Of a stretch of 64,000 nt of DNA, positions 5,747 to 10,714 are shown one piece after another. The stretch lies in NCBI RefSeq assembly GCF_009914755.1, contig NC_060926.1, one strand, 5' to 3'. Both the position numbers and the translations under genes were made by a program. Numbering within the stretch: the stretch's first letter is position 1; each line of letters opens with the position of its first letter. Under the pieces are notes generated by a model that did no database searches, was not told where the DNA came from, and was given only the letters and a program-made list of their open reading frames with translations. Source of the DNA: the human T2T-CHM13v2.0 reference genome, Homo sapiens.

Positions 5747-6834
5747 TATGGACACCGCATGGCAGGTCCCCAAAACTGGGAAGCAGCAGGGAGTGAAGGT
5801 TGGAAGCGGGCCTTGACAAGGTCCCCATGGCCAGAAATATACCTAACTAAGCCCCTGCCCTTTGTGCTCAGGGTGGGCCTATACCAGGCTTCACCCCTGT
5901 GTAGAGCTCCATTCAAATTCTTATGCTGGGTTCCAATCTGGGCCCTCTTGCCTGCCCATATCACATTTTCTCTACCCTGCCCCACTAATCTTGTTTTATC
6001 CTGTGCTGACTGAATTCAATTTTCCTTCTGGCCAAGCATGCAGACAATACCCGTAAGGACTCCATATTCTCAAACCTACCCTCCTCCACTGGGTTTGTAT
6101 CCCAAGGCCACTTGGTCATCGCTCAACAACAGGCTCTCTGCAGTACCACTCAACATGAATGAGATTGTGGAATCCACTCCAGCCCCTCCAGTACTTCCAG
6201 TATGCAGTATGGCCCAGCTGGCCATAGGTCAATGGTTTTATTTCACCCTCCAAATAATCTTTCCCTCATCTTATTTCTCACTTCCCTCCCTTTACACTCT
6301 CATTCTACTTTCACTCGTGCATCCTACACTCACTGCATACCTCCCCCAATCTATACCCTTTCCACCTTCCTGTGTTACTATTGCATTGACTTATCTGTCA
6401 ATTTCTAGCCAATCATAACATCATCTTTCTCGAAACCCACATTCTTAGCCTACATTATTTTTGCTATTCTTTTTATGCATACGTTTAGGGAGAGCAGTTA
6501 GTGCTCTCTACAAACTCACTAAAACAGACAAATGCCCTTAGAAGAAAATGACAATTCTCAAAGTATACATTAATGAAACTCAAAAAATTCCAATTTTCAT
6601 CAACCCATACAAATTGATAGTAAAGTTAATTTGGAAGAGGAAATACTTAGGATACCTGAGAAATTTTTGTAAAATAAATTTGAGAGGGGAATTTGTGTTA
6701 CCAGATTCAAATATATTTTAAAGCAACTCTAACTAAAACAACAGAGTATTGTTATAAATAGATTAATGAAACAGAAGGTACATAAACAGGCTCATGAATA
6801 TATGGGTAGTTAGCGACTTAAAATTAGTAAGGCA

Positions 6835-7149
6835 GCCGGGCGCGGTGGCTCACGCCTGTAATCCCAGCACTTTGGGAGGCTGAGGCGGGTGGATCATGAG
6901 GTCAGGAGATCGAGACCATCCTGGCTAACAAGGTGAAACCCCGTCTCTACTAAAAATACAAAAAATTAGCCGGGCGCGGTGGCGGGCGCCTGTAGTCCCA
7001 GCTACTCGGGAGGCTGAGGCAGGAGAATGGCGTGAACCCAGGAAGCGGAGCTTGCAGTGAGCCGAGATTGCGCCACTGCAGTCCGCAGTCCGGCCTGGGC
7101 GACAGAGCGAGACTCCGTCTCAAAAAAAAAAAAAAAAAAAAAAAAAAAA
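6835..7149 (+). mobile_element. AluYb8, full length
   Basis: Yb 7-bp duplication GCAGTCCGCAGTCC at 7078-7091, plus GGATCATGAGG and CTAACAAGG. Pure A28 tail. Perfect 15-bp TSD AAAATTAGTAAGGCA at 6820-6834 and 7146-7160, at a TT/AAAA site. Confidence 0.97.
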
Positions 7150-7862
7150 TTAGTAAGGCAAGGAGGGCTGACTCATTAAATGATGTGGAGGCCATCAGGA
7201 ACCGTTTGGAGAGGAATAAGTTAGACTCTTATCTCACATAAGACCCCAAGACAAAATGATGATTTATTAAAGAGTTCAATATTTTTAAAAACCTGATAGC
7301 TGCTAGAAGTAAATATAGGAGAATATGTTTATCATCTTGGAGTGGAAGATATTTTTCTTATCAGCACACAAAGGTAAAAAACCATAAAGGATAAGATTAA
7401 TAGATTTTACCAAAAAATATAGAACTTCTGTATGATACCATATGTCATAGAGTAAAAAAATTTTAGAAAATTATTTTCAGCTTCTAGCATAAACAATATA
7501 TAAAAAGTATGTATGGCTTAGTAAGGAAGGTGTAAAAACTCCAGTTGAAAATAAGAAAAGGAAATTAAAAAAGAATTTTTTAAAAAAGAACATATATAAC
7601 TACATGAAAAGATGACCGATCATTATTAATCCAAGAAATAACAAATTAAAAGTTAGTTTTATCTGAGCCTCTGACAAATATTGAAGGAACAGCTTAAACT
7701 TAAATGAAATGGCTGATATTCATACTGCAGTGTGGGTAAACAGCACTTTCACATATTATTGGTAAAACCAGAAAGAGGTGAATAATTTTAAAACAATTTT
7801 CTAACACACATCAATTTATCAGTTTGCTAATATATGTAAAAATTTTAATACCACTTTTAGGA

Positions 7863-8173
7863 TTTTTTTTTTTTTTTTTTTTTTTGAGACGGAGTCTCGC
7901 TCTGTCGCCCAGGCCGGACTGCGGACTGCAGTGGCGCAGTCTCGGCTCACTGCAAGCTCCGCTTCCCGGGTTCACGCCATTCTCCTGCCTCAGCCTCCCG
8001 AGTAGCTGGGACTACAGGCGCCCGCCACCACGCCCGGCTAATTTTTTGTATTTTTAGTAGAGACGGGGTTTCACCTTGTTAGCCAGGATGGTCTCGATCT
8101 CCTGACCTCATGATCCACCCGCCTCGGCCTCCCAAAGTGCTGGGATTACAGGCGTGAGCCACCGCGCCCGGCC
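7863..8173 (-). mobile_element. AluYb8, full length
   Basis: GGACTGCGGACTGC at 7916-7929 and other Yb8 diagnostics. Pure T23 tail. Perfect 15-bp TSD CACTTTTAGGATTTT at 7852-7866 and 8174-8188. Confidence 0.97.
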
Positions 8174-10714
8174 CACTTTTAGGATTTTATCTTACAGAAA
8201 TACTCTCATTAGCATCTAAAGATACATGGACCAAGATGTTCTCAGAAACATTATTTGTAAAACCAAATAACTGAAGGTTATTTAAACACATTTCAGTAGG
8301 AGAACAGTTAAATAAATTTTGGTCCAATCATACTACGGAATGCCAAAAAAAGAGTTAAAAAGATAGAGATAAATGTGTACTTACTGCTCCTGAAGAGTGT
8401 CCATGATATATTGTTAAGTGAAAAAGCTAGGCATAAAACAGTATGCGTAGTACTGGTCCATTTCTGTAAAATAAGAATGTATTTGAATATGAATGGAAAA
8501 GAGCCTGCAATGATATACACGAAGCTGTTAACAGTGGTTATCTTGAGATGAGGAAATTATGTATTTACTTTATACATCTCTGTTATTTGAATGTTATAAG
8601 ACAAGCTTATATTCTGTGTCTATTCAGAAAAAAAGTTTTGAAAAATATTTACTGAGTAAGTACCCCTGGCTCTCCATCTCTGGCCAGAGTCTACCATGTC
8701 ATCCATCAGGGTCTTGAACTCAGTGATGGCTATGTGGAATCATCTTTCAATGGCTAAATCTGGGGTGCCCTTCAAATCTCCCAAATTCTTAAAAGATGCA
8801 AAAATAGTCATTGCACCCAAACAGTTCTTATAGTGAACCTGAAAGAGCTGCGCTATCAATTTTGCACAGGATAATGCCGATACATTTTGTTCTGTTCAAG
8901 TTTGGCAATTGTTGAAAACAACGTGTGTGTGTGTGCATGTGTGTGTATGCTAAGCAAACTTAAGAGGACTTGCCTTCCTTTTATCCCTGAAAGTCAAAAA
9001 GAGACTTAACAGGCCAAGAATCTTATATCAAGCACCTGAACTAACATTTGAGATCTGGGTCAAAAGGAGAATCGACTAATAGTTGGCATTTTTTCAAAGG
9101 TTTTTCAAGTGATGCCAAATAATTAGAATGAGATCATGTTAGAGGCATTCAGACAGAGTCCCTTTGGGGACAAGAGGCAGAGGATGGAGGAGGAGGACAA
9201 AGATCCTACCCTTTATTCCTCATCCCCACATTTGATTTTGTTTGTCATCAGTTGTCCCTTATTAGCATGGACTCTCCTTTTTCCATGGAAATTTATCTAA
9301 TTTAATTGCAGAACATGCAAGACGGGCAATCCATCTTGCCCCACTGTCCATGTAAACAATACAGAAGGGTGGACTGTTTTCTCTAGCTATGTCTCTGGCA
9401 GCCTGTTCACTTTCAAATTAAAGGAATTAGAGGGTAAACATGGTAACCACAATTAAGATATTTTTAGAAACATAAAATCCTCTAGAAAACATGACACTAA
9501 TACTGGTATTATGATTGAAGTTAGGAATTATGGTTATTAGAAGCTTTGCAGTTTAAGTGCCTCATAAATCTAATCGCCTCACACATCCACTAATTCTGTT
9601 GCTATATTTACTGCAGACATCTATGATGACAGACAGTACCTTTGAGAAGGGCCAGATAAACAAAATATTTTACATACTCAAGCTTCTCAGTGTCTAATGG
9701 ATTCATATCATGGAGAGAAAAAGGCTTCATTAAAGGAACTGCACCAGGTGCTGAGAGCCGATTTACCATGGAGATTTGATCTGAGTTATCTTCTCCTATT
9801 TAATGGGAATACTGCTGTTTCACTCCCGGAGTCCTGAGCACAGAATGGACAGGGAGGGCCAGAGGAGGGGGTGGCAGGGTGCAGGGGAGGACATGGTAAG
9901 CTGACAACTCTGTAGATATGCAACTTTCCCCGACAACTTGGAAACTATCTGGAAGAAATATTATGTAAAACCTGGTGGCACGTGTTACATGTCCAGGATC
10001 CTTAGAATATCCATTGTTATTGGAAAGATTTCTCAACGAGGAGCGAATTGCACAAAGTAACCCCAGAATCCTCCTCTCCTGATGCAACTACGCTGTGGGT
10101 GCCTGCATGACCTTGAGAAGGAAACAAAATGAGGTAGGAAGTTATTATCACCAGACGTCAGAGCAGAGATGGAACCATTTTAGTATTATGGCTGACCTTT
10201 GGCCATTTCTTGAAATCAAATGCGATGCTTACTGCTGAAATCCTAATTTTATAGATTAAAATTTATGCCTGAGAATGTTACTGTGTGGTAGGTGGCAAAT
10301 TAGGAACATTTTTAAGGCTATGAATTCCTTTTGGTTTTTCTTCCAGCACCATTGTAAATGCAGAAATACTGCCACAGTGGCTGAGACATGCCCAGTAGTC
10401 TTGCCTCCCAATCCCACACACCCACCACAAACTCTACTGGATTACTCACATTACCTGTGGGCAGAAATCACAACTTCTCAATCTTCCTAGCCCTTAAGAG
10501 AGTGGCCCTTTCACGTTTCAGACAATACATGTGATTAATGGAGAAGGCCACACAAGGGAACATGCCAGAGAGGGGGCATGCTACAGTCCTGACCACACTG
10601 ACAATTCCAGCTTAGATTTTGAGTGTGTGTTTGTGAGCAGGAACAATGCTCGCCGCGTGTGTACATGTGTGTGAGTGCAGGGTGACAAGCTTCAGCAATC
10701 CAGGGAAAAATGAT

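What the first reader, a model, noticed from the sequence alone, without database searches (positions are those of the whole stretch)
6820..8188. Inverted, tail-to-tail pair of nearly identical AluYb8 elements about 710 bp apart
Seen: two full-length Yb8 copies (+ at 6835-7149, - at 7863-8173). By manual alignment they differ at only 4 internal positions over about 288 bp (6881, 7040, 7939, 8030), three of them CpG transitions from the recalled consensus. Each has its own perfect 15-bp TSD and pure tail (A28, T23), and they share no private variant, which favours two independent recent insertions. Established: Yb8 is a low-copy, human-specific and often polymorphic subfamily, and closely spaced high-identity inverted Alus are depleted in the genome and are recombinogenic. 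Inference: the pair can fold into a stem of about 310 bp including the tails. That would be a strong ADAR/MDA5/PKR substrate if transcribed, and a possible deletion or inversion site. It may also mark a local insertion hotspot in the AT-rich L1 host.
Basis: partly seen in the sequence, partly recalled or inferred. Interest (0 to 1): 0.8.

Follow-up and report, generated by a model that had tools for sequence, protein, structure and literature searches.

The report
Two neighbouring inverted AluYb8 insertions
Two young human Alu retrotransposons landed independently, in opposite directions, about 700 bases apart inside an old L1 fragment; the pair is real but ordinary, already catalogued and apparently fixed in people.

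Summary
There is a + strand AluYb8 at 6835-7149 and a - strand AluYb8 at 7863-8173. They are 713 bp apart, tail to tail, and differ at 4 internal positions (3 CpG transitions, 1 non-CpG). Each has its own 15-bp target-site duplication, an L1-endonuclease-type target site and a pure tail (A28, T23).

They are two independent retrotranspositions into an ancient + strand L1 ORF2 fragment, within an intron of the predicted lncRNA LOC107985962.

Both are already annotated. They are hg19 chr2:176648859(+) and chr2:176650215(-) in Feusier 2017's list of 1601 "presumably fixed" Yb8/9 loci. They were detected in 192 and 185 samples, and matched none of six polymorphism sets.

Each copy has 2 substitutions from the majority Yb state, which is the median of 34 sampled copies.

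Under random placement, 0.4-1.2 inverted Yb pairs this close are expected genome-wide, so one such pair is unremarkable. A third Yb element 11 kb upstream makes the cluster mildly unusual, but that test was post hoc.

A transcript through the pair is predicted to form a 308-bp duplex. However, the site is intronic, where inverted Alus rarely become MDA5 ligands. A 713-bp spacer also lies outside the range of strong DNA fragility. Verdict: ordinary.

The parts
6820..6834 (+). Left (5') copy of the target-site duplication of Alu1, AAAATTAGTAAGGCA; preceded by TT, giving a TT|AAAA L1-endonuclease-type site
6835..7121 (+). AluYb8 copy 1, body (287 nt; lacks the first G of the element); 2 CpG transitions from the majority Yb state (6881, 7040)
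   Evidence: hg19 chr2:176648859 AluYb8 in Feusier 2017 supplement
7122..7149 (+). Pure A28 tail of copy 1 (last 4 A may belong to the TSD)
7146..7160 (+). Right (3') copy of the TSD of Alu1
7161..7851 (+). Spacer: AT-rich (28% GC) piece of an ancient L1 ORF2 C-terminal region, in the same orientation as both flanks (not inverted)
7852..7866 (-). 3' copy (in Alu2 sense) of the TSD of Alu2, CACTTTTAGGATTTT on the + strand; last 4 T shared with the tail
7863..7885 (-). Pure T23 on the + strand = poly(A) tail of copy 2
7886..8173 (-). AluYb8 copy 2, body (288 nt, full length); 1 CpG transition (8030) and 1 non-CpG transition (7939) from the majority Yb state
   Evidence: hg19 chr2:176650215 AluYb8 in Feusier 2017 supplement
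8174..8188 (-). 5' copy (in Alu2 sense) of the TSD of Alu2; on the - strand the site reads AT|AAAA
6545..8494 (+). Minimum extent of the ancient L1 fragment that hosts both Alus. Five collinear + strand tblastn matches to ORF2 pieces of an L1 copy, and collinear DNA matches to an old paralogous copy
8385..8463 (-). Exon of the predicted lncRNA LOC107985962, with AG acceptor and GTAAGT donor. The Alu pair lies in the intron that starts at 8384, and Alu2 begins 211 nt into it
   Evidence: hub annotation

Best explanation
These are two separate L1-mediated (target-primed reverse transcription) insertions of AluYb8 elements. They entered the same ancient, AT-rich L1 ORF2 fragment in opposite orientations, 713 bp apart, in the gene desert centromeric of LNPK. 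Both are of average Yb8 age (about 2 substitutions each). Both are present in hg19, hg38 and CHM13 and are at or near fixation in humans. Their closeness is most simply chance co-location in a target-rich stretch. Inferred consequences: when the intron of LOC107985962 is transcribed, the two arms can pair into a duplex of about 308 bp. That duplex would be a nuclear ADAR editing substrate like tens of thousands of other intronic inverted Alu pairs. At the DNA level the 713-bp spacer makes cruciform or hairpin breakage rare. The pair stays a low-level substrate for inversion of the spacer or for fold-back events when long single-stranded DNA is exposed. No specific function is indicated.
For: Anatomy. 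Each Alu has its own perfect 15-bp TSD, an endonuclease-type target site and a pure tail. There are 4 differences and no shared derived state.

Family. Each Alu gives two sub-threshold 7SL/SRP matches, as expected for a dimeric Alu (55-59 bits against a gathering score of 70). The Yb 7-bp duplication is present. The 26-mer across it occurs 1922 times in the genome and 0 times in the reversed control. The nearest other copies are 99-100% identical (40 of 731 candidates scored).

Catalogue. The Feusier 2017 supplement lists AluYb8 at hg19 chr2:176648859 (+) and chr2:176650215 (-). Both are in Table S4, the 1601 presumably fixed loci, with Polyflag n. They were seen in 192 and 185 samples. There is no match in the Stewart 2011, dbRIP, Hormozdiari 2011, Konkel 2015, Sudmant 2015 or Wildschutte 2015 columns. 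The locus identity is secured by a third Yb element at exactly 11,042 bp from Alu1 in both hg19 and CHM13.

Age. Each copy has 2 substitutions, which equals the median of 34 sampled copies.

Host. Five collinear + strand tblastn matches to L1 ORF2 pieces fall in the left flank, the spacer and the right flank. An old paralogue is collinear with the spacer and right flank.

Chance. 0.42 (N=1922) to 1.16 (N=3179) inverted pairs with spacer <=713 bp are expected genome-wide (N=3179 from Ahmed 2013).

Fold. 308 inter-arm pairs, 2 of them G-U; MFE -805.8 against -123.6, -111.0 and -113.0 kcal/mol for the two arms and the spacer folded alone.
Against: A third Yb-lineage Alu lies 11 kb upstream. These three are the only Alus at least 95% identical to Alu1 in 274 kb (3 of 34 Alus of >=200 nt). 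Under uniform placement, a pair this close with a third Yb within 11.4 kb is expected only 0.012-0.054 times genome-wide, which leans towards a local hotspot. The threshold was chosen after seeing the data, and the uniform model is too simple. On chr1, gaps <=50 kb between Yb copies were 4 observed against 2.8 expected. Absence from apes was not tested, so gene conversion of older Alus is excluded only by the intact TSDs and pure tails. Transcription and editing of the site were not examined; no such data are at hand. Detection in 185-192 samples rather than all is compatible with the method's roughly 10% false-negative rate, but does not prove fixation.
Confidence: 0.88

Rival explanations
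1. Local insertion micro-hotspot. This stretch of old L1 was, in the human lineage, a preferred target for L1 endonuclease and reverse transcriptase. The two Yb8 copies and the Yb9 copy 11 kb away would then be co-located for a mechanistic reason such as target-site density, chromatin state or replication timing.
For: There are three Yb elements within 12.7 kb, and no other Alu at least 95% identical to Alu1 in 274 kb that is otherwise Alu-poor (34 Alus of >=200 nt). The expected number of such constellations under uniform placement is 0.012-0.054. Both target sites match the endonuclease preference, and the host is 28% GC. L1 is the commonest target of nested Alu insertions, and insertion hotspots within target elements are documented (Levy 2010, passages).
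Against: The test is post hoc: the third element was noticed after the fact and the distance cut was set by it. The pair alone is at chance expectation. The two insertions are 713 bp apart, not in each other's tails or TSDs as in the published clustering of L1-dependent elements. No other young Alu lies in the flanking 200 kb, so there is no regional enrichment.
Confidence: 0.1
2. One or both copies are older Alus converted to the Yb8 sequence by gene conversion. Alternatively, the second copy arose by inverted duplication of the first, or is an assembly artefact.
For: Gene conversion among young Alus is mentioned in the literature (Ahmed 2013, section read). Alu2 carries T at a CpG site where the Yb majority has C. 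That could be a partial conversion tract or an ancestral state rather than decay.
Against: The two TSDs differ from each other, and each is perfect, with a long pure tail, which old Alus do not keep. The other 31 Alus of >=200 nt in 274 kb are 74-93% identical to Alu1. Flanks and spacer are collinear with L1 and with a paralogue, so there is no duplication or inversion of host sequence. Both copies are in hg19 and hg38 RepeatMasker annotation, and reads from about 190 people support them, so this is not an artefact of this assembly.
Confidence: 0.02

Closest known systems
AluYb8 subfamily insertions (reference, fixed class)
   Same: Dimeric 7SL-derived body, Yb 7-bp duplication, poly(A) tail, 15-bp TSD, TT|AAAA-type target and about 2 substitutions from the majority sequence. 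Both are annotated AluYb8 in hg19 and hg38 and listed among 1601 presumably fixed Yb8/9 loci.
   Different: Nothing in the elements themselves. Only their mutual position is uncommon: inverted and 713 bp apart.
Inverted-repeat Alus (IRAlus) forming intramolecular dsRNA, substrates of ADAR1 and sometimes ligands of MDA5
   Same: Two Alus in opposite orientation within one predicted transcription unit, with a predicted duplex of 308 bp.
   Different: The pairing is much more perfect than typical pairs, with 2 mismatches and 2 G-U. But the location is intronic, in a predicted lncRNA. In Sun et al. [quoted passage not shown] No expression or editing evidence was available here.
Fragile Alu quasi-palindromes (Lobachev/Stenger 'excluded' inverted Alu pairs)
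   Same: High identity (about 99%) inverted Alus.
   Different: The spacer is 713 bp. The strong effects are for spacers of about 12-100 bp: recombination falls about 40-fold from a 12- to a 20-bp spacer and 300-fold from 12 to 100 bp. Cook 2011 calls hairpins rare beyond 100 bp and gives an inverted:direct ratio of about 0.95 at this spacing.
Nested Alu-in-L1 insertions (Levy et al. 2010)
   Same: Alu inserted into an older L1 at a TT|AAAA-type site with a TSD of about 16 bp. L1 is the commonest target.
   Different: Here one insertion is sense and one antisense to the L1. Genome-wide, sense insertions outnumber antisense 2.2 to 1 (44,751 against 20,044).

Membership tests
AluYb8 | Dimeric 7SL-derived element of about 280-290 bp with a 3' poly(A) | tested here: met
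   Each copy gives two Metazoa_SRP matches (55-59 bits, below the gathering score of 70, as expected for Alu monomers). Bodies are 287 and 288 nt and tails A28 and T23.
AluYb8 | Yb-lineage 7-bp duplication (GCAGTCC repeated) near the 3' end | tested here: met
   Present in both copies. The 26-mer across it has 1922 exact genome matches and 0 in the reversed control. That this duplication is the Yb diagnostic is recalled knowledge. It agrees with the RepeatMasker label AluYb8 given for both loci in the Feusier 2017 supplement.
AluYb8 | Remaining subfamily-diagnostic substitutions (Yb8 as against Yb7, Yb9 or Yb8a1) | tested here: inconclusive
   No reference consensus was available from a tool. 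Each copy matches the majority of 34 sampled Yb copies at all but 2 positions, and the published tables call both AluYb8 in hg19 and hg38. Alu2's T at the CpG site opposite 6977 could be decay or an ancestral state.
Retrotransposition (TPRT) insertion | Own target-site duplication, poly(A) tail and L1-endonuclease-type target | tested here: met
   Two different perfect 15-bp TSDs; sites read TT|AAAA and AT|AAAA.
Human-specific insertion | Empty orthologous site in chimpanzee and other apes | not testable with these tools
   No ape genome is held. The only indications are the prior (2,545 of 3,179 Yb copies are human-specific, Ahmed 2013) and low divergence (2 substitutions each). The supplement of Tang 2018 held no locus list (0 occurrences).
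Polymorphic Alu insertion | Presence/absence variation among people | tested here: not met
   From literature only. Both are in the 'presumably fixed' Table S4 with Polyflag n, were detected in 192 and 185 samples, and have no match in six polymorphism sets. Pangenome data were not available.
IRAlu dsRNA / ADAR substrate | Both arms in one transcript and A-to-I editing clusters | not testable with these tools
   Both arms lie in one intron of a predicted lncRNA (hub annotation; splice sites checked). The duplex is predicted. No RNA-seq or editing data were available.
Fragile inverted-repeat (quasi-palindrome) site | Short spacer (about <=100 bp) allowing hairpin or cruciform extrusion | tested here: not met
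   The spacer is 713 bp; thresholds are.
Active Alu source element (hallmarks listed in Feusier 2017) | Poly(A) of >=20 uninterrupted A and TTTT within 15 bp after the TSD; intact A and B boxes and SRP9/14 sites | tested here: inconclusive
   Alu2 has a tail of 19-23 and TTTTT starting 10 nt after the TSD. Alu1 has a tail of 24-28 but its first TTTT is at +122. The boxes were not scored against a reference. Alu2's two differences lie in the right monomer (Alu positions about 143 and 234). Alu1's lie at about 47 and 206, and position 47 was not checked against the SRP9/14 sites.

The most novel reading that the evidence does not exclude
The 13-kb stretch holding three Yb-lineage insertions could be a genuine human-lineage micro-hotspot for L1-driven insertion. 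Its product would be a fixed, almost perfect 308-bp inverted repeat sitting 211 nt downstream of a lncRNA exon in the gene desert beside LNPK and the HOXD cluster. That repeat could act as a constitutive nuclear dsRNA (a hyper-editing site) that influences splicing or retention of that transcript.
Probability: 0.07. Interest if true: 0.4.

Novelty: already known. Interest (0 to 1): 0.15.

Why it matters
It matters little. The two elements are catalogued reference AluYb8 copies that appear fixed in humans, and one inverted pair at this spacing is what chance predicts. The pair could serve as a clean natural test case: a near-perfect 308-bp inverted Alu duplex with a 713-nt loop, for asking how pairing quality and loop size affect editing. 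It is also a candidate site for a cryptic 713-bp inversion polymorphism that short reads cannot see. Neither use touches an open question that other loci could not address.

Tried and rejected
1. Genome-wide count of Yb-Yb inverted pairs. The plain pattern search lists only the first 100 of 1922 places. I therefore gave only an analytic expectation. In those 100 chr1 places the smallest gap was 14,765 bp.

2. Pfam on 9 stop-to-stop ORF pieces of the flanks and spacer gave 0 of 9 with any family at E<=10. A list of 226 ORFs from 1-16000 was prepared but not sent.

3. PF08333 was not in the library. I used an L1 copy found through PF02994 as comparator instead. A blastn of that L1 against 1-16000 matched only the A tail.

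4. DNA search of the spacer against the genome gave only 3 weak other places, 71-77% identity over about 100-130 nt.

6. The Tang 2018 supplement held no locus list (0 occurrences of six coordinate prefixes). The supplements of Ahmed 2013 list only Yb8a1, Yb10 and Yb11 and were not opened.

7. Literature. In the search 'Yb8 + inverted + Alu' (27 papers, 20 listed), no listed title or abstract start concerns this locus. The search 'LOC107985962' gave 2 papers, seen as listing only, neither about Alus.

8. Assembly artefact and inverted duplication were considered and rejected (see rivals).

9. The sub-threshold mir-1268 and mir-3135 matches inside the Alus (30-72 bits against gathering scores of 80-83) are taken as Alu-derived family resemblance, not as genes.
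Full report
OBSERVATION.
- Alu1 lies on the + strand at 6835-7149, with a pure A28 tail at 7122-7149.
- Alu2 lies on the - strand at 7863-8173, with a pure T23 run at 7863-7885.
- The elements are tail to tail with 713 nt between them. 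The repeat finder reports 310-nt arms, 99% complementary, 718 nt apart after trimming.
- The bodies differ at four positions: 6881, 6977/8030, 7040 and 7068/7939. Alu1 also lacks the first G.
- Each element is flanked by its own perfect 15-bp duplication: 6820-6834 = 7146-7160, and 7852-7866 = 8174-8188. Four bases of one copy of each duplication merge with the tail, so the tails proper are 24-28 and 19-23 nt.
- Read on the strand of each Alu, the target sites are TT|AAAA and AT|AAAA. This matches the TT|AAAA preference of the L1 endonuclease described in Levy 2010 (passages).

WHAT THE ELEMENTS ARE. Rfam gives two sub-threshold 7SL/SRP matches per element (55-59 bits against a gathering score of 70), which is the dimeric Alu architecture. 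Both carry the 7-bp duplication of the Yb lineage (its diagnostic meaning is recalled).

The held genome is the T2T assembly named in the hub note. In it, a 26-mer spanning the duplication occurs 1922 times (1012 forward, 910 reverse) and 0 times in the reversed control. A search with the Alu1 body returned copies 99-100% identical on many chromosomes (40 of 731 candidates scored).

To polarise the four differences without a remembered consensus, I fetched the first 39 places, all on chr1. 34 were full length; 5 truncated or poorly matched copies were dropped. Against their majority state:
- Alu1 has two CpG transitions (C>T at 6881, G>A at 7040).
- Alu2 has one CpG transition (C>T in Alu sense, 8030) and one non-CpG transition (T>C in Alu sense, 7939).
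- No derived state is shared.

The 34 sampled copies have a median of 2 substitutions (range 0-9), so these two copies are of ordinary Yb age, not unusually young.

A rough age can be inferred by hand arithmetic. I used the 0.15%/Myr non-CpG rate of Ahmed 2013 (section read) and the six- to ten-fold CpG rate quoted in Feusier 2017 (passage). With 239 non-CpG and 48 CpG bases, about 0.8-1.1 changes are expected per Myr. Two changes then mean roughly 2 Myr, with a Poisson range of about 0.2-9 Myr. An age of 6 Myr or more would give 2 or fewer changes with probability of roughly 0.04-0.15.

ALREADY CATALOGUED AND APPARENTLY FIXED. The supplementary workbook of Feusier et al. 2017 (PMC5531096; passages and supplement searched) lists AluYb8 at hg19 chr2:176648859 (+) and chr2:176650215 (-). 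I found these rows by estimating the hg19 position from recalled LNPK coordinates.

The identity of the locus is then secured independently. The same table lists an AluYb9 (-) at chr2:176637817, which is 11,042 bp from the first junction. In CHM13 a Yb-lineage Alu lies at window -4500..-4211 (- strand), also exactly 11,042 bp from Alu1 on the same junction definition.

Both Yb8 copies are in Table S4, described in the text as 1601 elements 'highly likely to be fixed', with Polyflag n. They were detected in 192 and 185 samples; the study covered 213 individuals and regards false-negative rates above 10% as poor quality. They have no match in the Stewart 2011, dbRIP, Hormozdiari 2011, Konkel 2015, Sudmant 2015 or Wildschutte 2015 columns, and are labelled AluYb8 in both hg19 and hg38.

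So the general statement that Yb8 is often polymorphic does not apply to these copies, and an assembly artefact is excluded. The junction-to-junction distance is 1356 bp in hg19 and 1341 bp in CHM13. The 15-bp difference must lie in the tails or spacer and is most simply tail-length variation (inference).

Human specificity could not be tested. The prior is 2,545 of 3,179 Yb copies (Ahmed 2013, section read).

HOST AND CONTEXT. The spacer is 28% GC. Pfam found nothing in 9 ORF pieces, and the spacer has only 3 weak DNA relatives in the genome. I then used unchanged ORFs of one L1 copy, found through the L1 ORF1 family, as tblastn queries. They give five + strand matches in L1 order and spacing:
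- 6545-6706 and 6708-6758, in the left flank.
- 7218-7283 and 7303-7431, in the spacer.
- 8173-8340, in the right flank.

Each match is weak (E = 0.12, 0.14 and 5e-5). After subtracting the Alus, they are collinear with L1 to within about 30-45 nt.

An old paralogous copy (L012) matches 7311-7507 and 8402-8494 collinearly on one strand. In this haplotype the spacer has the same orientation as both flanks, so no Alu-Alu inversion has occurred here.

The pair lies in the intron that begins at 8384 of the predicted - strand lncRNA LOC107985962. Its exon 8385-8463 has an AG acceptor and a GTAAGT donor. Alu2 starts 211 nt into the intron.

IS THE CLOSENESS MORE THAN CHANCE? Analytically, with N = 1922 (exact 26-mer) to 3179 (Ahmed 2013) elements in 3.117 Gb:
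- The expected number of inverted pairs with a spacer of 713 bp or less is 0.42-1.16.
- The expected number tail to tail is 0.21-0.58.
- The probability of at least one inverted pair is 0.34-0.69.

One such pair in a scan of the whole genome is therefore what random placement gives.

Against this stands the third Yb element 11 kb upstream. I fetched 100 kb on each side. In the resulting 274 kb there are 34 Alus of at least 200 nt. Only these three are at least 95% identical to Alu1; the other 31 are 74-93%. The expected number of 'pair plus third Yb within 11.4 kb' constellations is 0.012-0.054 under uniform placement.

That is suggestive of a micro-hotspot, but it is post hoc and rests on a uniform model. 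In the chr1 sample, gaps of 50 kb or less were 4 observed against 2.8 expected, which is mild clustering. I give the hotspot reading about 0.1.

CONSEQUENCES. RNA: the - strand transcript of 6820-8188 folds with the two arms paired. The MFE is -805.8 kcal/mol, there are 308 inter-arm pairs including 2 G-U, and the stem is also present in the centroid. The arms and spacer folded alone give -123.6, -111.0 and -113.0 kcal/mol.

Whether it matters is another question. In Sun et al. 2025 (PMC12695637, passages), only 420 of 39,079 editing clusters were putatively immunogenic. Most of these lay in UTRs or intergenic regions rather than introns, and intronic Alus were 'almost excluded'. Alu length and base-pairing percentage did not differ between the classes; only loop size did. 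An intronic pair in a predicted lncRNA of a gene desert is thus a plausible nuclear ADAR substrate but an unlikely MDA5 ligand. No expression or editing data were available to me.

DNA: Cook 2011 (PMC3215922, passages) reports the following.
- The inverted:direct ratio is 0.073 for spacers of 24 bp or less, but about 0.95 around this spacing.
- Hairpins are rare beyond 100 bp.
- The previously described instability concerns spacers below 650 bp.

Ait Saada 2023 (PMC10164571; abstract, introduction and one results section) reports the following.
- Recombination falls about 40-fold when the spacer grows from 12 to 20 bp, and 300-fold from 12 to 100 bp.
- In wild-type yeast, rearrangement rates fall about 20- and 31-fold at 200 bp and 1.5 kb.
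- Spacing stops mattering only when long single-stranded DNA is exposed.

The pair is therefore at most a weak fragile site. Its persistence at apparent fixation with an uninverted spacer fits that.

VERDICT. This is a known kind of feature whose two parts are already catalogued. It is ordinary, with a small residual interest in the three-element cluster.

Noticed in passing
outside the window: L052, window coordinates -4500..-4211 (- strand): A third Yb-lineage Alu, 97.6% identical to Alu1 and carrying the 7-bp duplication. It equals hg19 chr2:176637817, labelled AluYb9 and marked as matching the Stewart 2011 polymorphism set in the Feusier 2017 supplement. Three Yb elements therefore lie within 12.7 kb, with no other Alu at least 95% identical to Alu1 in 274 kb.
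   Followed up: partly
window 8385-8494: The lncRNA exon 8385-8463 (- strand; AG acceptor, GTAAGT donor) overlaps a stretch (8402-8494) that matches an old paralogous repeat copy collinear with the L1 host. The exon therefore appears to be recruited from antisense ancient L1 sequence.
   Followed up: partly
window 6835-8173 versus hg19: The distance between the two Alu 5' junctions is 1356 bp in hg19 (published table) but 1341 bp in this assembly. The roughly 15-bp difference probably reflects poly(A) length variation between haplotypes.
   Followed up: no
window 7837-7851 (- strand, just 3' of Alu2's TSD): A TTTTT run starts 10 nt after Alu2's TSD. With its tail of 19-23 A, this meets two of the published hallmarks of a potential Alu source element. 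Alu1's first TTTT is 122 nt downstream.
   Followed up: partly
window 6967-7018 (+), 7989-8040 (-), 7035-7101 (-), 7906-7972 (+): Sub-threshold Rfam matches to mir-1268 (69-72 bits against 83) and mir-3135 (38-44 bits against 80) lie inside both Alus. They reflect Alu-derived miRNA families, not separate genes.
   Followed up: no
window 5256-5532 (-): An older Alu (83% identical to Alu1) lies 1302 bp upstream of Alu1 in inverted orientation. Alu1 therefore has inverted partners on both sides, although this one is much more diverged.
   Followed up: no
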